From positions 117,676,001-117,740,000 of the forward strand of contig OZ024740.1 in NCBI GenBank assembly GCA_964016885.1: DNA of 64,000 nt. The letters are read 5' to 3'. Shown one piece after another: positions 2-63,441 of the stretch. The position numbers were made by a program, and so were the translations under genes. Source of the stretch: Eledone cirrhosa (taxonomy: Eukaryota). The notes under the pieces were generated by a model. That model ran no database searches and was not told where the DNA came from. It saw only the letters and a program-made list of their open reading frames with translations. Every line of letters begins with the position of its first letter. The stretch's first letter is position 1.

Positions 2-1500
2 TCCGCCTTTCTCGACTCCATCCTCGCCCCCCTTGTCACCACCCTCCCCTCCCACATCTCCGACACCAACCACGCCCTGCGCCTTTTCGACTCCATCACC
101 TACCCACCCGGCCCACAGCCCTTCCTCTTCACCCTAGACATCAAGTCCCTCTATACCGTCATCCCCCACGCCGACGGCCTACGCGCCCTCAAACACTACC
201 TCGACCTTCGCCCCTCCTCATTCCCTCCACCCCACCCTTCTTCGCCTCGCCGAGCTGGTCCTCACCCTCAATTGTTTCTCCTTCTCGGGTGAGTTTTACC
301 AACAGGTCACGGGGGTAGCCATGGGTACAAGAATGGGCCCGAACTATGCCAACCTTTTTGCTGGCCATGTTGAGGCCCAAATCTTTGCCCAGTACACCGG
401 CCCCACGCCCGAAATGTACGGTCGTTACATCGACGATGTATCGGAGCCACGACCCTCACCCGGGAACAGCTCGACTCCTTTCTCTCCTTCTTCTGCTCCT
501 TCCACCCCTCCCTCCACTTCACCACCTCTATCTCCACCACCCACGTCCACTTCTTAGACATCTCCGTCGCCTTCGACCCCTCCCACCACTCCCTCGTCAC
601 CTCCGCCTTCTTCAAACCCACCGACTCCCACTCTTACCTCGACTTCACCTCTTCCCACCCCACACACACTAAATACTCTATCCCCTACTCCCAACTCCTC
701 AGGATCCGCCGGCCTCTCTAGCCGAGATGCCGACTTCGAGTCCCAGGCCCTTTCCCTAGTCAGCCATTTCATCCGCAGAGGTTACCCCCCTCTCTCGTCC
801 ACACCGCTCTCACCCGCGCCCGTGCTGTCCACCGCTCCACCACCCTCACCCCACGCCACCGCACACCCACCCACCGTCTCCCTTCCCCATTACCTACCAC
901 CCCTCCACTTTACCCCTCCACCGCACCATCCGCCGCCTCTTCTGACGCCTCCAGTCCGACCCCTCCACCTCCCACATCTTCACAGCCCCACCACTCCCCT
1001 CCTTCAAACGCGCACGCAATCTCCGCACCCTCCTCGTCCACAGCTCCCTACTCCCCAACCCACGCTCTCTTCCTCTCCCCCGGTTCCTTTCCCTGTTCTA
1101 GGCCCCGCTGCAACACCTGTCCCCACATCACCAACACCACCACCTTCCAGGGTCCCAACGGCCACTCTCTCTCTTTCCGGCATGCCTTCCGCTGCACCTC
1201 CTCCAACCTAGTCTACGGACTTCGCTGCACGGAGCGCAGCGCGACTTACGTCGGACAGACTGGACGTCGCCTGGCGGACAGATTCACTGAGCACCTCCGG
1301 GATATTCGTCTCGGTGGTAGTTCCCCCATCGCCCGCCACTTTGGTGGCCCTGGAGACTCCGCACGCCATCTCACAGTCTGTGGGCTACTCCAATGCCACG
1401 GAACACCCGCCAATCTCCTCAGAGTTGAACAAAGAACCATCTTCAGCTTACAGACCCACACTTCCCCCGGCCTGAATCCCCACCCTTATTCCTTTAGCCT
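2..1500 (+). pseudogene. Frameshifted Penelope-like RT/GIY-YIG ORF
   Basis: Conserved motifs are spread over different frames; only fragments such as ORF 321..557 are open. Confidence 0.88.
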
Positions 1501-2925
1501 TCGACCGCCCCCCTCCCCTCACACACATCCCCCGCTAACACCACTAACACACCCCTCCTTTTCACCGACTACCCCACTACTCCACCTCACATCCGACCAC
1601 CCTTCCCCAACTAACATACTAACATCCCTCCCTTCTTCTCCTCCCCCCTCCTTATCACACGCACACACCCACCGGCACATATATACACGCGCTCACACTA
1701 AACACACACCCTAGTACCACCACTAACCCTCACCCCCACACATCCACCCCACCACCCCGCAACTAACATCACTAACACTCCCTGACCCCAAGCACACGAA
1801 CACAGGCACCCACTTACACCACCCACCCTACACGCAACTAACATCACTAAGACCCCCAACCCCACGCACACGTACACACACACACCCTCTTACACCACCA
1901 ACTCTACACACCCTACCACCACTGACCCCCACTCACACCCGCATTCAACCCTTTCTCCACCTCCTGTATACTAACACCCACTAACACCTCCTTCATCAAA
2001 CTACACACACACCAGTACACCACACTCCCCACATCGTCCCCCACACCCTTCTCTCCCCGCTCCACCCACACCCTTTCTCAAACACTCACTCATCCCACTA
2101 ACACCTCTACTAATACACACACACACCCTCTCACTCCAACTTTCACACCTACCTATCCTCGCCCCTTTACCATTCCACCCTACTGCTGCTATGCCCTCTG
2201 ACCACCTCCCTGCACACACAGACACACAGCACTCCTACTGCCTTGACCACTTCCTGTTGCGCGCGCACCCCACATCTCCCCTCTTCCGACCAATCTCTTC
2301 ACGGATTACTCGTATGTGGACCTTCACCGTGGAATCAACTACCATCCTATGATTTTACCAACCATTCTACCACATCTTACGGAATCACCTTTACGACTCA
2401 CCCACACACACACCCCCAAAAATATTTTTTCCCCACACGCCACCTACACCCACAACACGCTTAAACACCACACACACACACGTGCGTCTCACCACATATT
2501 TACACATTCAGCATCCGGATTCCTCTCCCCCCACCCCTCTATCCACACACGCACACACACTCCGACCTACACCCCACCTCACACACACCTCTTCCTGAAC
2601 ACGCAACCCCGTTCTTCCCCTCAACCCTTGCTTTCACATACACACACACACACACAGACGTACACCTACACACACCACCTTCAGCCCTCCCCGCTCGGAC
2701 ACCCCGTCTCCCTCTCCCCACTCCACCCGCCACCACCCCTACACGCCCCACATCCTTCCACCACCTGTTTTACCCCAGTTTAATTTTATTTTGATCATGC
2801 TTTTATTTTTATTTTTATTTTTAATTTTTATTTTCATTTCCACCGTTTCCTCCCACCCCTTTTTTGCTATATGTCTCTCCACCACTCCCCTACACACCAT
2901 TTGAACTCTCTTCCCACACACTTTT

Positions 2926-22032: not shown

Positions 22033-22169
22033 ATATATGTAGAAAGTGAGGTTTTTTTACAAAATGGAAAAAAACGAGGTGTCCTACACGAGTGAAAGTA
22101 TAAGGAAAAAAGATGAAATCGAAAATGCAACTGGAGTCTTTTTTAAAAAAAAAAATATTTATTTGGTTC

Positions 22170-22205
22170 CTTTACCGGTTTCGTAGTTCTTGTGCTTTTC
22201 AAAAG
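22170..22205 (-). ncRNA. U3:A8 variant hammerhead, stem II mismatched
   Basis: Minus: ctt-TTGAAAA-GCAcaagaacTAC-GAAA-CCGG-TA-aag. Confidence 0.6.
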
Positions 22206-22267
22206 TAGAATTGAGATAGAGGGTTTGTGGTTTTTCTCAAAACCACAAACCCTCCATCTCAATTCTA

Positions 22268-23324
<1,057 letters not shown>

Positions 23325-23905: not shown

Positions 23906-24833
23906 TTGGTGGAGCCCGTATCAAGTAATTGACTCTATGTAGTAGACGGTTCGGTAAAGGCGCCGAAGACAGGTGGTTTACAGGCGGCGAATTTGCGATG
24001 CGTTGCGTTAAAGGTGTCTTGGATAAAGGGAATGATTCCTAGTCATTGGGTGCTTTGAAAGGATTCGACTCTGATGCAAGCATTCAGACCTGGTCTCGAG
24101 GCTGTAGGCACCTTACTCCCTCTCTTTTACCAGTCTCGGACGCCCTGAAAATTATGTCATATGCACTGTTTCTCCTTCCTGACAAACTGAAATAATGAAA
24201 AGCTCGAAAATGTTTCATTCGACCATCTACACTAGCTTGCTGCATCTTCTTTAATTCCTCTTTTACAGATTTCAGCCATTGGATGTGAATTACATTATAA
24301 AATATAGTTGGATATACCTAAATCAATACTTCGTCTTGGTACGTATTTCAGCGTTCTTCTAAGAGTAAATTTACCGGATGGATATAATGCAGGCGGTCTT
24401 GTATACCGAAGGATATTTCTGCTCATATGTACCAGTTTTCATCCCGAGCTGATTCACACACATACACATACGTATATACATATGTACATGCATATATATA
24501 TATTTATTTATTAAAATAACAGATTAAAGTTTAAGCAAAGAATCGGTGCTTTCACCCTTAACGGGATCTTCTATATATATATATATATATTAGAAAGATC
24601 GAGTATCGAAAAATCGGCGCACGAGTTCACGATAAACAAGATTCGAAATGAGCGGCAGAGGGCTCAATAATTCAGATGAATCAGAGCTATAACTATCGTT
24701 AAAATACCGTCACACATAGAACAAGTCTAAAATCAACCATACGATAAAAAATCGATAATAGAAGATTCGGGACAATCAGATAAAAAATATCAATAAAACA
24801 ATACATCAATAATTTAAATGTATGTAAAATCAT

Positions 24834-24968
24834 ACCCGGACCCACTAGACAGGTGTTAAATCTAGCTTCTTGGGTTTCTGTAAATCCTTAGACTGTACTC
24901 TATCAGCTCACATATAAATACATAAGAGTTCCAGAGTAAGCGGACTGGAGTTTACTTCATCAACGAGC
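24834..24968 (-). ncRNA. Large type I hammerhead-like fold, copy 1
   Basis: Minus: gctcg-TTGATGA-aGTAAAcTCC...GGATTTACa-GAAA-CCCA..CTAGA..TCTAG-TGGG-TC-cgggt. Confidence 0.65.
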
Positions 24969-25448
24969 TTAGTCCTAGCGGATAAGAGGCTAACTACAAT
25001 CGAAATACGCACATGGAATATGGCAAGGGAGATAACCTCTACATCCGCGAAAACAATTCGAGAAAATGTGGAAATACACATATCGAATAAAAGTGCTCAA
25101 TAGACATGTTAAAATAAAACAGGAGCTATTCATCACTCAATAGAATCGACCAAAAATGAGCAATAAAATTAACTGGTGGATAGCTATGTCCAGAGCTAAA
25201 AATATTAGAAAGATCGAGTATCGAAAAATCGGCGCACGAGTTCACGATAAACAAGATTCGAAATGAGCGGCAGAGGGCTCAATAATCCAGATGAATCAGA
25301 GCTATAACTATCGTTAAAATACCGTCACACATAGAACAAGTCTAAAATCAACCATACGATAAAAAATCGATAATAGAAGATTCGGGACAATCAGATAAAA
25401 AATATCAATAAAACAATACATCAATAATTTAAATGAATGTAAAATCAT

Positions 25449-25583
25449 ACCCGGACCCACTAGACAGGTGTTAAATCTAGCTTCTTGGGTTTCTGTAAAT
25501 CCTTAGACTGTACTCTATCAGCTCACATATAAATACATAAGAGTTCCAGAGTAAGCGGACTGGAGTTTACTTCATCAACGAGC
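25449..25583 (-). ncRNA. Large type I hammerhead-like fold, copy 2
   Basis: Same sequence as copy 1, shifted by 615 bp. Confidence 0.65.
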
Positions 25584-25646
25584 TTAGTCCTAGCGGATAA
25601 GAGGCTAACTACAATCGAAATACGCACATGGAATATGGCAAGGGAG

Positions 25647-25701
<55 letters not shown>

Positions 25702-25992: not shown

Positions 25993-26980
25993 TCTATATA
26001 TATAAAACTGTGGTTGTCTGTCTGTCTATCGATTTTTGGCACACATCTCCTCTTAGAATCTCTCACGGAATTGCACCGAAATTGCTATACTTGTACATTG
26101 AGCCCTAGCGAAGACATCGGAAAAAAAAAATTTCAAATTGACCCACCCTATGTGACGAAATCGAATATAATGTATCGATTTTTGAGCGTAAGTTATCAGT
26201 TATTTCCCTTTGTTCTGTTTACATTGAGCGTCTTACGTAAAAAATTACGTTGGCTTTAACAGTTGTCGAGCCAGCAAAATATTGACCTGCAAAATTCATC
26301 AGTTCGAACACTAAGCTTCCGTTTTGCTTCATTTCCATTTAAAAGCATTTTAAAACAATATTTTTACTTGAAAACAAGTCTATTTAAAGACTACGTAAAA
26401 CAAGAAAATATTTCGTCGTTAGGCGTGCAGACAGACAGTCGTGCAGACAGACAGTCGTGCAGAGAGGTGATATACGCGCGCAGACAGACAGTCGTGCAGA
26501 GAGGTGATATAGGCGTGCAGACAGACAGTCGTGCAGAGAGGTGATATAGGCGTGCAGACAGACAGTCGTGCAGAGAGGTGATATAGGCGTGCAGACAGAC
26601 AGTCGTGCAGAGAGGTGATATAGGCGTGCAGACAGACAGTCGTGCAGAGAGGTGATATAGGCGTGCAGACAGACATAACTGATAATTTGGTTACGCTAAT
26701 GTTTTTCTCTGCGTTGCAGTGTTTACATTTTCGATCTTTGTTAATAAATAACCAGTGCAGTTTCTATCCCCAGCATCCTCTTTTGTTATAACATTCGGGT
26801 TATCGTTATGTTTTCTTAACTTCATAAGGCATATTGTTGGTTGATGGAATATTAATAAAAAACACCACATGCAAGTCTGCACAGTAGACACTACAGTTTT
26901 TAAGACAAGAAAGAAACTTAACATTGTAACTTTAACACAGCTACTGAGCGACCCCGAGCAACGCCGGGCTTTACTGCTAG
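25993..26980 (+). mobile_element. Non-autonomous Helitron
   Basis: A|TCTATATATATAAAACTG ... CCCGAGCAACGCCGGG hairpin ... CTAG|T; same ends as 33605-36870. Confidence 0.9.
26421..26675 (+). repeat. 37 bp minisatellite inside the Helitron, about 6-7 units
   Basis: Unit aggcgtgcagacagacagtcgtgcagagaggtgatat. Confidence 0.92.
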
Positions 26981-27093: not shown

Positions 27094-27141
27094 ATATATA
27101 TATATGAGAATAAACGTGCTGCGTTGTTGCAAATGGGTTAC

Positions 27142-27307
27142 ATATGAATAAAGTGGTCCTTCATCAGTGATCTTCCAACCATCATCGGTATTTCTTCGCT
27201 TTAAAGACCATATACCTCCGGTTGGTGCGAGCAACCGGAGGTATATGGTCTTTAAAGCGAAGAAATACCGATGATGGTTGGAAGATCACCGATGAAGGAC
27301 CACTTTA

Positions 27308-27314
<7 letters not shown>
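27142..27314. repeat. Near-perfect palindrome, 83 bp arms, 7 bp spacer
   Basis: 27142-27224 vs 27232-27314, one mismatch; ORF track shows the same peptide on both strands. Confidence 0.95.
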
Positions 27315-27380
<66 letters not shown>

Positions 27381-34739: not shown

Positions 34740-36837
34740 ATCGGAATGTAACCCGTGAACTTTTTCCTAGGCAAAATTATTCGAACAGACATGACCTCAT
34801 TGCCAGAGTGTTCAGACTGAAACTGGCTAAACTCATGGCTTTAATAAAAAAAGGTCAGGTATTTGGGGCTGTAAAATGTGACATGTTCACCGTCGAATGG
34901 CAAAAACGATGGCTGCCACATGCTCACATTTTGATTTGGTTAGCTGATAAAATCAATTCAAATGCCATGGACAGCTTCATTTCGGCTGAAATCCCTAACC
35001 CAGCAACTGACCAGGAATTACATGACATCGTCAAAGCTAACATGGTCCGTGTGCGTCGGGTCCTAATGGGCATCACACGTGGTATCCCTTACGGTCGTGC
35101 AGTAAGGGATACAAAAAAAAATTGTTGACGAGACTCAGACTGGTGGCGATGGGTACTCCCTGAACAGGCGGAGACGGCCCGAGAACGGTGGCTTCACCAT
35201 AACAGTAAAGGGAGGTCAAGTCGACAATAGATGGGTGGTCCCTTACTGCTCGCTTCTCTTGAAGATGTTCAACGCCCACATCAACGTTGAGTTTTGCAAC
35301 TCCGTCAAGTCTATAAAATACATATGCAAATATGTAAATAAGGGCTCTGATGAGGTCACAGAATACCTGGCGGGGCGGTACATCAGTAGCAATGAAACTT
35401 TTTGGCGCCTATTTGGTTTCCCCCTACACCAACAGCCCCCCGCCATCGTACAGCTTGCGGTACATTTGGAAAATGGGCAAAGGGTTTACTTTACGGACCA
35501 AACCGCCGCCGAGCTGGCCGCCGATCCGAAAGAGACACCTCTAACAGGTTTCTTCAAACTTTGCCAGTTCGATACATTTGCGCAAACAATTGTGTACCCC
35601 CAGGTTCCATCCGACTTTATATGGTCGAAAAACACTTGGGTGAGAAGAAAGTCAGGTCAGGCTGTTGAAAGACATCCTGGTGTAAAATTTGACAGCTGTC
35701 TTGGAAGGGTTTATACACTGTGTCCCCAAGTCAGCATGAGTGCTTTCATCTCTGCCTTCTTCTGCATGAAGTTGTAGGCCCACAAAGTTTTCAGGACCTC
35801 AAAACTGTTGATGGAGAAATATGTGATACGTACCGGGAAGCCTGCTTTAAGCGTGGTCTTTTGGAAGATGATTCACAATGGGATTCCACTTTAGCAGAGT
35901 GTGCTTTGTTGAAATCACCTAAAGGTCTAACGGGAACTCTTTGCCATTTTGCTTCAAAAGTGTGAATTGGGTGATCCCAAATCTTTATGGGTCAAGTATA
36001 GAGACTTCATGTCTGAGGATTTCCTCCGCCTGGCTCATCTGCAGCATCCTTCAGTGGAAGTTGCTTACAGCGGCATTATCTACAACAGGGCACTCATTGA
36101 TATCGAGGACGCCCTCCTCGACATGGGTGGGAGTGGGTTGGCGACGTATGGCTTGCCGTCAACCGTCACAGATGAAGCTAACACGTTGGCTCCGGATTTG
36201 TTGCGGGAAACAGCATATGACATCGAATCTCTTTCCCAATACTTAGCGGAAAATGAGCCCAAACGTCTGTCGGACCAAAGGTTGGCCTATTTAACTATCA
36301 TTGACGCGGTTCAAAATCAGACTGGGGGTATTTACTTTCTCGGTACGTGGGGGTACCGGAAAAACTTTTGTAACAAAATTGATTCCCGCTAAGATTCGTC
36401 AGGAGAAAAAAATTGCGTTGGCCGTTGCATCGTCCGGGATCGCTGCTACTTTGCTGCCGAGAGGCAGGACAGCACATTCAACCTTTAACCTCCCCTTGGA
36501 TTTAGTAAAAACTGAGACACCAAGATGCAATATCAGCAAAAGATCACACGAAGCTCTGGTTCTCAAAAAATGTCGCCTCATTGTTTGGGATTAGTTCCCA
36601 ATGGCACACAAGGGTGCCCTTGATGCATTGGACATGGCCCTGAAAGACATTAGGGATTCTACGGTTCCTATGGGTGGCGTAACCCTTCTGCTATCAGGGG
36701 ATTTTCGGCAAACACTGCCTGTCACCCGCAAAGGGACAAGAACTGATGAAGTGCGTGCCTGCCTTAAGTCGTCCACGTTGTGGCCCCAGGTGAAGACTTT
36801 GTACCTGAGCACAAATATGCGTGCTCATAGCAAATGA
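34740..36837 (+). pseudogene. Helitron Rep-helicase, frameshifted and truncated
   Basis: HUH motif VEWQKRWLPHAHILIW, NAHINVE..SIKYICKYVNKG, LAVHLENGQRV, GGTGKTF, ASSGIAATLL, GRTAHSTF, GDFRQTLPV, LSTNMR. Confidence 0.93.
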
Positions 36838-40739: not shown

Positions 40740-42030
40740 CATATATCTTATATGAATTGATACATTTAACATCTAATTGAGATATACATGTGTGGGTAAT
40801 AGGACAATGGGATTGATGAGTTAATATATGTATACAGCAACTATAACGGTACGCGATGGGGCCCACCCACAGCCCCGGCGGACAGAATGAAGAAGGTGTT
40901 TCCCCGGTGGACGGCAAGGCAGACGTGCTGGAAAAGCCACTCCAACTCGCGGGGCTCACACCTGCGGCTGGCCAGCTCATCGCCTATGGTGGTGAGTAAA
41001 GAGGTAGCCTTGGGGCCGAGGACACCAGAAGTCTCCACTGCCAGAGGTACGACCGCAAACCTGTCGGAGAGCGACCGGTACTTGAGGAGTTTGGCCCCCT
41101 CAGCCCGACGTGCAGCAGAACCTGGGTCAGTCGCAGACTGCACCAGGTTGCGGCTGCAGAAAGTGTCGGAGGAAGTGGCATCCCAGACGAGGGGTTTGCC
41201 ACCGCGGAACGGGGAGATGGTCATGCCATCTGGCCTTTTGCCGTCCCCTCGATCCATCCCCACCGGCTCGAGCTGGGAAGGGAAGCCTGCAGCGTCCAAG
41301 CCATGCTTAATGACCTTGTTGAGGGCAGCATGGCGTGGAATGCGGCCGGCACTGTGGCGACAGGAAAGCGGGTGGAGGCCGAAAGAGTCCACGGTGAAAC
41401 CGCAGCGACATTGGTGTGGCTGGCAGATCCGGAGGCCGAGCCTCAGAGAAACGCCGATGCGCAGGCTATGGTTGTCTAGCTGCGTGCCATTGGAGAAGGA
41501 GGGCAGGGCATGGAGCCAGACACCACTGTGGGGTTTGGAGGCCGCACGAAAACAAGCAAGGCGGTGCTGGTCCAGCTGGCGCGTGAGCCTGTCTGAGGCC
41601 AGGCTGCACTGGATGGCATCCCAAGTGCGTTGGGGGAACTTAACGTCAACAGGGGAGAAGGAGGAGGGACGTCTACTGGGCTAATTCCCAGCCGGTCCCA
41701 CGTCTCACAGGCAGCCTCACATTCTCTGAACACAGAGGGTTTTGTTGTGTTTTGAAGAACCCTGCTGACGAGGACGAGGCACGAGCTAACCGACGAAAGA
41801 TACGCCGGCAAAGCTAGTGAGATCGGGGACCGGAGGCCAAGGCCGCCATACCTGACAGGTAAAGTGGCCTGTTGCCATCCTATGTCGTCAAATTTGACGT
41901 TGCATATCTCCTCGGCTGCTGCTCGGATACAAGTATCGACGTCAGCGAGGAGAGATGTCTGGGTGTAGCACGGAGCGCTGCGGAGTGTATAGAGGAGCTT
42001 CGGCATGGCGAAGCAGTTCCTCAGCAGGAG
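40740..42030 (-). mobile_element. CRE-clade-like non-LTR retrotransposon, 3' part with restriction-like endonuclease
   Basis: PKLLYTLRSAPC, QATLPVRYGGLGLRS, GLHPLSCRHSAGRIPRHAALN, DGKRPDG..PLVWDAT, K..KY, PLAVETSG (ORFs 41476..42006 and 40841..41392). Confidence 0.88.
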
Positions 42031-42057
42031 AAATACGGTATATATCTGAAAGATATA

Positions 42058-42213
42058 TACCGCATTTCTCGGCGTCGAAGACGCTATTTTTTATTCCTAA
42101 AATAAGTCTCGAAAATCTACCATGCGTCCTGGAGGCCGAAAGTTGTTTATTATTTTTTTCCAGATTTTGGTTGTAAAAATTAGGGTCCGTCCTCGAGGAT
42201 GAAGCGTCCTCGA
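42058..42213 (+). mobile_element. pogo/Tc2-like MITE, right end truncated
   Basis: Left end taccgcatttctcggcgtcgaagacgc; internal inverted gcgtcct blocks; right end stops at gcgtcctcga. Confidence 0.6.
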
Positions 42214-45030: not shown

Positions 45031-46122
45031 ACATACATATATACATACATATATTAATAAATACATATATACATACAAACATTCACACATACAAACATAC
45101 ACACATACATTCAGACATACATTCATGCATAGATACACACATATATTCATACAAAAATACACACATACAAACACACACACATCCATTCAGACATACATAC
45201 ATACATTAATACATACATACATCCATTAATACACACATACATAATTTGAAGTAAAAAAAAAGTAAAAACATTAGCAATTAGTGGCGTACAAAGCAATATT
45301 TCTCCTACGACATTGTCTTATCTAAATATGTATCAAGAATGATCTAATGTTTACTGACAATTAATGGAGAATAATTAGAGTCTGGGTAAGACAGTTTATG
45401 GTGTAGACGAAAGCGAAATGATTTAGATAGCAACGTAAGAGATATGAAGAGGTGCGGATGATTTGAAGGAGAAAGGAAGCAAGAGAGCGGAACAAATCCT
45501 TCTAATTTCCTGTAGGTACCGGTGAGAAATGGCATGTATTAGAAAAGAAATAAAACAACAGAGTACTAGGTTCAACTTTATATTATTCAGAAGGAGGTTT
45601 TAAATCATATATGGATGTACATATGTAAGTTTGTACCTTTACATGTACACCCCTATATACATATATATATGTATATATATATATAACATATACATACATA
45701 TATGTATATATATATTTATATATATGTATATACATATATATATATATATATAAAGAATTAGTATATCTACCAACATATATATACAGATGCATACCTAGCA
45801 TAGGTATGCATCTGTATATATATGTTGGTAATATACTAATTCTTTATAATTATCTCCAAATTATTTTGTTGAGCAAAAATTTGCTAAAATTGCTACTATA
45901 GTTAATAGTAATGGCTCGGCTACTGTCTTTTAACACCCCACTCCTCACTGATTAACCTCGATGTCACGTGATTGATTCTTTTGAATTTGCCACCGACCAA
46001 GTAGGTAGTAATTTTTTCAATGTCTTGGAATTTAGTCCACGCTTGCTTTTTTCCATCCACTGAATTATTTTTGTATAAGTTCCCTGTGTCTACGCATCGC
46101 CTGGTAACTTATCTGAGAACAG

Positions 46123-46202
46123 ACTTCCTGATGACGAAAGGCTTTCCATGCTTTCCATTGGAAACTATGTTTATTCCCTTTCAGAAACTAATTAGTTGGA
46201 GT
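46123..46202 (+). ncRNA. Type I hammerhead ribozyme with extended stem II
   Basis: acttc-CTGATGA-cGAAAGG...CCTTTCa-GAAA-CTAATTAG-TT-ggagt. Confidence 0.8.
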
Positions 46203-46290
46203 GAAATTTTACTAAGTAAGTTAATTTTTATAATTTTCTTATTTTACGTATTTCATATATATATATATATATATGCTTACATATATATAT

Positions 46291-46629: not shown

Positions 46630-49401
<2,772 letters not shown>

Positions 49402-62891: not shown

Positions 62892-62972
62892 CCTTCTGAC
62901 GAGAGTTTTTCTCTGCAACGGATGCCGTATGGACTCCGTTTATTTTTGAGACTCGAAACCGATTCGGTAAGT
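62892..62972 (+). ncRNA. Hammerhead copy 1, stem I disrupted by deletion
   Basis: cctt-CTGACGA-GAGTTT...AGACTC-GAAA-CCGATTCGG-TA-agt. Confidence 0.7.
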
Positions 62973-63359: not shown

Positions 63360-63441
63360 CCTTCTGACGAGAGTTTTTCTCTGCAACGGATGCCGTATGG
63401 ACTCCGTTTATTTTTGAGACTCGAAACCGATTCGGTAAAGG
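63360..63441 (+). ncRNA. Complete canonical type I hammerhead ribozyme, copy 2
   Basis: cctt-CTGACGA-GAGTTT...AGACTC-GAAA-CCG att CGG-TA-aagg. Confidence 0.9.

What the first reader, a model, noticed from the sequence alone, without database searches (positions are those of the whole stretch)
24591..25650. Young 615 bp-period retrozyme-like element with an oversized, core-variant hammerhead
Seen: 445 bp near-identical repeats, no ORF, no TG..CA ends, (TA)n flanks. Each repeat has a 135 nt minus-strand fold: 5 bp stem I, core UUGAUGA (U3:G8 wobble), A.A next to the core, branched stem II (ccag/ctgg, actct/agagt), true hairpin stem III (CCCA/TGGG, CTAGA/TCTAG) and a GUC site. Inference: cleavage at both sites (25454 and 24839) would release a 615 nt unit that could circularise, as retrozymes do. 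The size and architecture are unlike minimal PLE hammerheads.
Basis: partly seen in the sequence, partly recalled or inferred. Interest (0 to 1): 0.7.

Follow-up and report, generated by a model that had tools for sequence, protein, structure and literature searches.

The report
Variant-hammerhead retrozyme with a cutting footprint
This is one copy of a protein-free 615-base jumping repeat, scattered by the thousand into TA microsatellites of an animal genome, whose units carry a conserved, oversized hammerhead-shaped RNA motif with an unusual core; the ends of its genomic copies pile up just behind the predicted cutting site, so the RNA likely cuts itself in the cell and is likely pasted in by Penelope-like retrotransposon enzymes.

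Summary
Observation confirmed except the 'branched' stem II, which is one 76-nt rod. The locus is 1.72 units of a non-coding 615-bp repeat from a superfamily with 5,309 motif hits in a 3.0-Gb genome. Of 124 insertions, 123 share one 3' end at (TA)n; 5' ends vary; arrays reach tens of units. The type I hammerhead fold covaries across families. Core: U3 with A8 or G8 (C3.A8 in one family, C3-G8 in 0 of 30), an extra base after A9 (known from Penelope-like elements) and a near-invariant extra A before G12 (not found in the papers read). In an unselected sample, 29 of 100 insertions end 0-22 nt behind the predicted GUC cut, against about 3 expected; 56 read through it. Best reading: a non-LTR retrozyme, likely self-cleaving and circularising, copied by target-primed reverse transcription with a Penelope-like (probably Hydra-clade) enzyme. 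No parent element and no RNA data were found; stalling of the polymerase at stem I is a live rival for the pile-up. The scan has noted other retrozyme families, some with U3-A8 cores, elsewhere in this genome; no note matched this sequence. New variant of a known kind.

The parts
24591..25650 (-). Whole insertion: 1.72 head-to-tail units; fixed 3' end at 24591, truncated 5' end at 25650
24591..25205 (-). Complete 615-bp unit counted from the fixed 3' end (inferred start of reverse transcription)
   Evidence: 123 of 124 insertions share this end
25206..25650 (-). 5'-truncated second unit (445 bp, 2 mismatches to the first)
24839..25453 (-). Predicted cut-to-cut monomer, 615 nt, predicted circle; no ORF over 57 aa
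   Evidence: circle is inference
25449..25583 (-). Type I hammerhead motif, upstream copy: stem I 25583-25579 with 25453-25449; core U3-A9 25578-25572; extra A 25571; stem II rod 25570-25495; extra A 25494; GAAA 25493-25490; stem III 25490-25455; GUC 25456-25454
24834..24968 (-). Type I hammerhead motif, downstream copy (same layout, GUC 24841-24839)
24662..24687 (-). Conserved hairpin 1 near the 3' end (also 25277-25302); candidate docking site for the borrowed enzyme
   Evidence: pair types vary across 31 rows of many families; role is inference
24607..24645 (-). Conserved hairpin 2 next to the 3' end (also 25222-25260); candidate docking site
   Evidence: role is inference
24572..24590 (.). 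(TA)n target at the fixed 3' junction
25651..25697 (.). (TA)n target at the truncated 5' junction

Best explanation
The locus is one insertion of a high-copy, non-coding tandem retroelement (a non-LTR retrozyme) whose RNA likely cuts itself at a variant type I hammerhead and is likely copied into (TA)n by the enzyme of a Penelope-like element. Shown: dispersed young families, one fixed 3' end at (TA)n, ragged 5' ends, arrays from a fraction of a unit to tens of units, a covarying three-way junction with hammerhead core pattern, and a pile-up of 5' ends just behind the GUC. Inferred steps: (1) an array is transcribed on the minus strand; (2) each hammerhead cleaves after GUC, giving 615-nt monomers (about 0.7); (3) part of them is ligated to circles (about 0.6); (4) a Penelope-like RT/GIY-YIG protein, most likely of the TA-targeting Hydra clade (about 0.55), nicks (TA)n and starts reverse transcription at an internal site 248 nt behind the cut; (5) on a cut template it runs off at the cut and the GC-rich cDNA tip is trimmed to the first TA-like match, which gives the pile-up; on a circular or uncut template it runs on and writes more than one unit.
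For: Copy number and spread. Polarity: 123 of 124 insertions with the fixed end and TA there; 1,163 exact TA-plus-3'-end junctions for the sister subfamilies; same polarity in distant family D. Fold: unconstrained RNAalifold gives the three-way junction; stem II rod has 5 pairs with two-sided change, 0 of 500 shuffles as high in covariation score; stem II base 3 of 4 pairs two-sided and stem I 100% paired across 30 divergent rows. Core pattern: U4, G5, A6 30 of 30, position 7 all four bases, position 8 purine only, G10.1 27 of 30. A before G12: 5,309 hits with it against 29 without, control 6. Pile-up: 29 of 100 ends at 0-22 nt behind the cut, 3.2 expected under a flat or TA-microhomology-class model; 23 of 79 at risk in the first unit, 0 of 56 at 1-29 nt past the cut; 56 read through, 33 exceed one unit; seen in G8 (13 of 46) and A8 (8 of 28) lineages; unrelated hammerhead family E shows 8 of 30 ends at 6-23 nt behind its own cut. 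Helper on hand: an 821-aa ORF with RW, DKT, CxCx5C, CxxC and CxH motifs in (TA)n, matching the Hydra description in PMC8557442 section 11; 52 of 56 scored copies have no internal stop. Internal RT start and AT-rich nicking are shown for a Penelope-like element in PMC11167929. U3-A8 followed by an extra base is reported for Schistosoma Penelope hammerheads in PMC4209133.
Against: No cleavage, transcript or circle is shown. No autonomous element sharing sequence with the unit turned up in the loci screened with one Hydra-type protein or with the covariance model (29 loci); nearby ORFs were separate insertions. In a deep mutational scan of a type III hammerhead only the G:C swap rescued the 3-8 pair (PMC9901934), so U-A, U.G and C.A may be slow; 8 of 9 Xenopus retrozyme dimers did not cleave in vitro (10.64898/2026.07.22.740005); for the anole element cleavage was not needed for insertion in vitro and uncut RNA was the main template (PMC11167929). 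The pile-up peaks at 11-17 nt behind the cut, which is also the foot of stem I; the window for the count was chosen after seeing the data and 4 of 100 ends were corrected by hand. In the earlier sample, picked by the hammerhead itself, only 4 of 121 ends lay within 9 nt of the cut. The rows of the alignments were picked with anchors that include core letters, and sequences are related, so shuffle counts are not probabilities. The window copy folds no better than shuffles, and stem I or III has low pairing probability in many single copies.
Confidence: 0.72

Rival explanations
1. The fold is real but serves as a protein-binding or polymerase-blocking structure: the RNA is copied as an uncut multimeric transcript, the reverse transcriptase stalls at the foot of stem I, and no circle is made.
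For: Ends peak 11-17 nt behind the cut, just past the distal part of stem I, and at 6-7 nt in family E, the foot of its stem I. Non-C-G 3-8 pairs were poor in PMC9901934. Uncut RNA was the main template in PMC11167929.
Against: The longer and more stable stem II and the 3' hairpins give no pile-up (23-nt bins: 0.27 at the cut, at most 0.074 elsewhere). Four first-unit ends lie inside stem I (1, 4, 5 and 7 nt behind the cut), one of them without TA match, and none lies 1-29 nt past the cut. The catalytic positions keep the hammerhead pattern across families down to 67% identity.
Confidence: 0.18
2. The unit is the terminal repeat (pLTR) of an autonomous Penelope-like element, and the arrays are its truncated ends amplified locally as satellite by unequal crossover, not an element that moves by itself.
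For: Vertebrate retrozymes resemble pLTRs and this route is proposed in 10.64898/2026.07.22.740005. Arrays of 14-17 and more units exist. Only a small share of all copies was inspected.
Against: Copies are dispersed with one fixed end and run through the unit junction into the next unit, never into an ORF, in the loci examined. Units of the youngest family are identical or 1 base apart in 12 of 12 units compared from different arrays. Partial last units end anywhere, as expected of reverse transcription.
Confidence: 0.07
3. The catalytic core uses the downstream CUGAUAGA (25521-25514) with a short stem II instead of the upstream UUGAUGA.
For: The sequence allows a short hairpin before GAAA in the window's subfamily.
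Against: No pair with two-sided change, one pair broken in 19 of 31 rows, a 1-bp stem I; the motif is lost in distant families that keep the upstream core.
Confidence: 0.03

Closest known systems
Animal non-LTR retrozymes (Cervera and de la Pena 2020, PMC7229834: abstract, passages, sections 14 and 17 read; Li, Clavereau, Pollet, bioRxiv 10.64898/2026.07.22.740005: parts 1-3 of 5 and passages read)
   Same: Non-coding head-to-tail repeats with one type I hammerhead per unit, low GC, thousands of copies, Penelope-like elements proposed as helpers; unit lengths of 51-972 bp are on record.
   Different: Unit of 605-623 bp against 170-400 nt for the circles tested; a 76-nt stem II and a stable 36-nt stem III instead of a short palindromic one; non-C-G core pair and two extra core bases; strict (TA)n targeting, one fixed 3' end and a 5'-end pile-up at the cut, none of which I found described in the parts read.
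Hammerheads of metazoan Penelope-like elements, including the U3-A8 Cercyon variant (Cervera and de la Pena 2014, PMC4209133: parts 1-2 of 4 and passages of supplement file 2; file 1 could not be searched)
   Same: U3-A8 core, an extra base between A9 and G10.1, G10.1-C11.1 pair, short helix I.
   Different: Those are minimal, with helix III absent or palindromic and C11.1 directly before GAAA in the printed consensus; here an A stands between C11.1 and G12, U3.G8 and C3.A8 also occur, and stems II and III are long.
Hydra clade of Penelope-like elements (Craig et al. 2021, PMC8557442: passages, section 11, supplement passages listing Hydra-1_Obim in (TA)n)
   Same: (TA)n target, fixed 3' end, 5' truncation, hammerhead upstream of the 3' end; non-autonomous multicopy head-to-tail partners are described for Chlamys elements.
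   Different: No ORF; no sequence shared with the one intact Hydra-type family compared; 5' inversions are rare here; Hydra elements have canonical hammerheads.
Natural hammerhead core variants (Perreault et al. 2011, PMC3088659: passages and section 8)
   Same: U3-A8 covariation occurs in nature; a U10.1.U11.1 mismatch is tolerated; insertions A6a and U13a are listed.
   Different: A.A or C.A opposition at the stem II base (or an A inserted before G12) and wobble pairs at 3-8 are not listed in the section read; figures were not visible.
Plant LTR retrozymes (recalled, and as summarised in PMC6765202 passages)
   Same: 600-1000 nt cut-to-cut RNA of similar size.
   Different: No LTRs, TG..CA ends, primer site or 4-bp duplication; type I, not type III, hammerhead.

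Membership tests
Animal non-LTR retrozyme | Head-to-tail tandem units, at least two with a complete hammerhead | tested here: met
Animal non-LTR retrozyme | Type I hammerhead topology (stem I open, II and III closed) | tested here: met
Animal non-LTR retrozyme | No protein coding, no LTR features | tested here: met
   longest Met ORF 57 aa; ends
Animal non-LTR retrozyme | Dispersed, multi-copy, mobile | tested here: met
Animal non-LTR retrozyme | Self-cleavage of the transcript | not testable with these tools
   only indirect: 5'-end pile-up behind the GUC
Animal non-LTR retrozyme | Circular RNA in tissue | not testable with these tools
   read-through of the cut in 56 of 100 insertions fits a circle or an uncut multimer
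Hammerhead ribozyme, canonical core | U4 G5 A6 N7, A9, G12 A13 A14, A15.1-U16.1, H17 | tested here: met
   part of the 3' letters was imposed by search patterns, but family D, found by similarity, keeps them
Hammerhead ribozyme, canonical core | Watson-Crick C3-G8 pair | tested here: not met
   U-A 21, U.G 7, C.A 2, C-G 0 of 30 rows; window copy U.G
Hammerhead ribozyme, canonical core | Stem II starts directly after A9 and ends directly before G12 | tested here: not met
   extra A/C after A9 (30 of 30) and A before G12 (5,309 against 29)
Hammerhead ribozyme, canonical core | Loop 1 to loop 2 tertiary contact | not tested
   a bulged stem I extension is possible (86% of cells paired) but no contact was modelled
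Non-autonomous Penelope-like element | Fixed internal 3' end, 5' truncation, microsatellite target | tested here: met
Non-autonomous Penelope-like element | Sequence shared with the terminal repeat of an autonomous element | tested here: inconclusive
   none in the loci screened; the genome holds far more candidates than were read (106,019 first-look candidates)
Non-autonomous Penelope-like element | Inverted 5' copy and 30-40 bp tail | tested here: inconclusive
   one clear inversion among the loci (L027); no second 3' end seen
Plant LTR retrozyme | LTRs with type III hammerhead around a unique centre | tested here: not met
   arrays of one unit, type I fold

The most novel reading that the evidence does not exclude
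This superfamily uses a hammerhead subclass with a rebuilt core: a pyrimidine-purine 3-8 pair that avoids C-G, an obligatory extra A before the general base G12 and a 76-nt stem II, tuned to cut only part of the time. Cut templates and circles then both feed Penelope-type reverse transcription, and the genome itself records the cut site and the ratio of cut to uncut templates in the ends of thousands of insertions, which would be direct evidence that hammerhead cleavage acts in the Penelope/retrozyme life cycle in vivo.
Probability: 0.35. Interest if true: 0.72.

Novelty: new variant of a known kind. Interest (0 to 1): 0.52.

Why it matters
The role of hammerheads in Penelope-like elements and retrozymes is open: one paper found cleavage dispensable in vitro, another proposes circles as templates. 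A family with thousands of young insertions, one fixed start point and a measurable stop at the predicted cut makes both questions testable, from DNA alone and at the bench, with an intact candidate helper in the same genome. The core variant (wobble or U-A at 3-8, extra A before G12) is missed by Rfam here and would be missed by descriptors that demand C3-G8 or C11.1 directly before GAAA, so such ribozymes may be under-counted. The class itself is known, and this scan has met other families of it in the same genome.

Tried and rejected
Rfam scan: no hammerhead match at E up to 10. Sequencing runs: no RNA holder listed; this says nothing about expression. Contigs of two runs of unrecorded kind covered the stretch, one from a second organism with a share of 0.31, and show related variants only. 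Search for an autonomous parent: flanks of family loci screened with one Hydra-type protein, direct reading of L031, L221 and L363, an inverted pair at 4.4 kb that proved to be two arrays (L139), and a covariance-model search of 29 loci: none found. Pfam has no family for the helper ORF; the protein atlas was unavailable. Branched stem II rejected; downstream CUGAUAGA core rejected. One hand-drawn pair of my stem II model was out of register (25 of 31 unpaired). On the divergent alignment RNAalifold did not recover stem II by itself because of gaps; the base pairs were counted on a named structure. Family D 5' ends: 6 of 30 fell within 26 nt behind to 6 nt past the cut, but several extensions broke early, so it is not counted as a test. 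Literature searches for retrozyme/hammerhead/octopus, Penelope hammerhead core variants, C3U/G8A (43), insertion before G12 (66), octopus or cephalopod with Penelope and ribozyme and truncation at the cleavage site (132) gave no description of this family, of the A before G12 or of the pile-up; two relevant papers (Przybilski and Hammann 2007, Lunse et al. 2017) are not held and were not seen, and figures and some supplements could not be read, so absence from print is not established. The host taxon was not tested; 'octopus-like' is my guess from genome size and repeats and the wording of earlier notes.

Full report
Observation. The stretch 24591-25650 holds two 445-bp repeats at a period of 615 bp with 2 mismatches, between (TA)n runs. 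The longest Met-started ORF in a doubled unit is 57 aa. Rfam has no hammerhead match here, and the window copy folds no better than shuffled sequence (z = -0.03), although its lowest-energy structure is the hammerhead three-way junction.

It is a family, not a local duplication. The window's genome has 3.0 Gb. A search with the element gave 90 matches from 39 of 1,768 candidates scored, mostly 93-99% identical and often in arrays. A 30-mer of the ribozyme has 292 exact hits, an 18-mer 1,276, and the gapped motif spanning stem III 5,309, with 0 for the reversed control. Subfamilies range from 99% to about 67% identity: a 605-bp subfamily B (2,492 candidates), several at 82-88%, a 623-bp family D (3,642 candidates) and more distant ones. 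The youngest 615-bp family forms arrays of 14-17 or more units, and 12 of 12 units compared from different arrays were identical or 1 base apart.

Insertion pattern. After dropping 34 overlapping loci and one cut by a locus edge, 123 of 124 insertions begin at the same base (24591 in the window) next to (TA)n; the other end is variable and touches TA repeats in 81 of 121 resolved cases. Family D has the same polarity. On the strand that carries the hammerhead, the fixed end is the 3' end and lies 248 nt behind the GUC. This is the pattern of target-primed reverse transcription from an internal start, shown for an anole Penelope-like element in PMC11167929 (parts 1-2 of 4 read).

The fold. On 31 representatives of the closer subfamilies (82 distinct sequences clustered at 3 differences; alignment) RNAalifold returns the three-way junction without constraints. 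A single 76-nt stem II rod has 5 pairs with changes on both sides and a covariation score that 0 of 500 shuffles reach; one pair that I drew was out of register. On 30 rows from many families, 3 of the 4 pairs at the base of stem II change on both sides and stem I stays fully paired through C-G/U-G exchanges. The rows are related, and they were picked with anchors that contain core letters (2 of 23 distant loci dropped for lack of a core match; loci truncated within the motif left out), so these counts are support, not probabilities.

The core. In those 30 rows U4, G5 and A6 are invariant, position 7 takes all four bases, position 8 is always a purine, and the 3-8 pair is U-A in 21, U.G in 7, C.A in 2 and C-G in none; an A or C follows A9; G10.1 stands in 27. 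Family D, found by similarity, has U3 in 34 of 34 and A8 in 33 of 34 sequences. On a tree built without the core strand, G8 needs at least 5 changes, so the window's U3.G8 is one state of a position that flips. The A between C11.1 and G12 is near-obligatory: 29 hits lack it (control 6) against 5,309 with it. U3-A8 and the base after A9 are known from Penelope hammerheads (PMC4209133, parts 1-2 and supplement passages; PMC3088659 section 8). The A before G12 is not in the consensus printed there, and my searches did not find it described, but two relevant papers and all figures were out of reach. Two unrelated hammerhead families in the same genome, with C3-G8, show the same pair of extra bases and covarying stem II bases, one of them in the window at 46128.

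A footprint at the predicted cut. Short copies found by their 3' end seemed to stop just behind the GUC (8 of 12). To test this I took the first 100 of 1,163 TA-plus-3'-end junctions of the sister subfamilies, mapped each 5' end and corrected 4 by inspection. Of 100 ends, 29 lie 0-22 nt behind the cut, against 3.2 expected from a flat rate or from a rate that depends on TA microhomology (Poisson P about 1e-18; window chosen after seeing the data). In the first unit 23 of 79 insertions at risk stop there and 0 of 56 stop 1-29 nt past the cut; no other 23-nt bin exceeds 0.074 against 0.27; 56 read through the cut and 33 exceed one unit. The stop occurs in lineages with G8 (13 of 46) and A8 (8 of 28; 2 of 5 unassigned). 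In the unrelated family E, 8 of 30 ends lie 6-23 nt behind its own cut; family D was not cleanly resolved. Against: most ends sit 11-17 nt behind the cut, not on it, which is both the first TA-like match and the foot of stem I; and in the sample picked by the hammerhead only 4 of 121 ends lay within 9 nt of the cut. The sample concerns sister subfamilies, not the window's own; in the window's subfamily 7 of the 40 loci end 9-16 nt behind the cut, but those loci were picked in a way that favours this.

The helper. No parent element was found. An unrelated intact element in L031 has an 821-aa ORF with RW, DKT, CxCx5C, CxxC and CxH motifs, an inverted 5' repeat, a minimal hammerhead 132 nt before its 3' end and (TA)n flanks. 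These motifs match the Hydra clade, nearly all of which insert into (TA)n (PMC8557442 section 11; its supplement lists an octopus Hydra family). Of 56 copies scored, 52 have no internal stop. It shares no sequence with the unit, so it is a candidate only.

Mechanism. Transcription of an array, cleavage after each GUC, partial circularisation, and reverse transcription from the fixed internal start into a nicked (TA)n by a Penelope-like protein. Run-off at a cut 5' end gives the short class; circles or uncut multimers give more than one unit. The repeat structure, polarity, fold and pile-up are shown; cleavage, circle and helper are inferred. Cautions from print: only the G:C swap rescued the 3-8 pair in a type III hammerhead (PMC9901934 passages); 8 of 9 Xenopus retrozyme dimers did not cleave (10.64898/2026.07.22.740005); cleavage was dispensable for the anole element in vitro.

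Verdict. It meets the testable features of animal non-LTR retrozymes (PMC7229834 sections 14 and 17) and works like a non-autonomous Penelope-like element, without a shown parent. It fails two canonical core features, hence a variant. Earlier notes of this scan describe other retrozyme families in this and related genomes, two with U3-A8 cores; none matched this sequence. Interest 0.52: known class, distinct core variant, and a countable genomic trace that bears on an open question.

Noticed in passing
window 46122-46203 (+): Second hammerhead family (E): C3-G8 core with an extra C after A9 and an extra A before G12, palindromic stem III; belongs to a roughly 540-bp tandem element with frequent inverted 5' copies, 3,076 candidates.
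   Followed up: partly
window 62896-62969 and 63364-63437 (+): Canonical type I hammerhead in a 468-bp tandem ending at (TA)n; a third retrozyme-like family; the upstream copy has a deletion after the cut site.
   Followed up: no
L079:2476, L247:1016 and 1077, L162:849, L234:1534: Small hammerhead family (F) with the same two extra bases around a 4-bp stem II; an inverted pair in L247.
   Followed up: no
L031:231-4845 (G000:C1:1138230-1142844): Intact Hydra-type Penelope-like element, 821-aa ORF, no Pfam match, at least 52 intact copies at 98-100% identity.
   Followed up: partly
L190, L224, L225: A family of the same superfamily with C3.A8 at the core pair, the wobble counterpart of U3.G8.
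   Followed up: partly
L192-L207, L312-L316: Youngest 615-bp family (U3-A8, C after A9) makes much longer arrays (14-17 or more units) than its sisters, with near-identical units between arrays.
   Followed up: partly
L070 (G000:C6:51340014-51342459): One array joins units of two subfamilies (83% and 96% to the window), suggesting insertion into or template switch onto a related array.
   Followed up: no
L060:5637, L068:2299, L145:3077: Further hammerhead-like motifs with U3-A8 cores and no extra bases, from other repeat families.
   Followed up: no
window 22151-22322, 27139-27317, 22454-23324: Long fold-back repeats next to (TA)n runs, and a mariner-like transposase remnant (by eye, name recalled) with 90-nt inverted ends.
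   Followed up: no
window 722-1714 (+), 46711-48745 (+), 35106-36392 (+), 40841-42090 (-): Broken ORFs that look by eye like a GIY-YIG Penelope C-terminus, a non-LTR reverse transcriptase, a Helitron and another retroelement (labels recalled, not searched).
   Followed up: no
window 26400-26695: 37-bp minisatellite of about 7 units.
   Followed up: no
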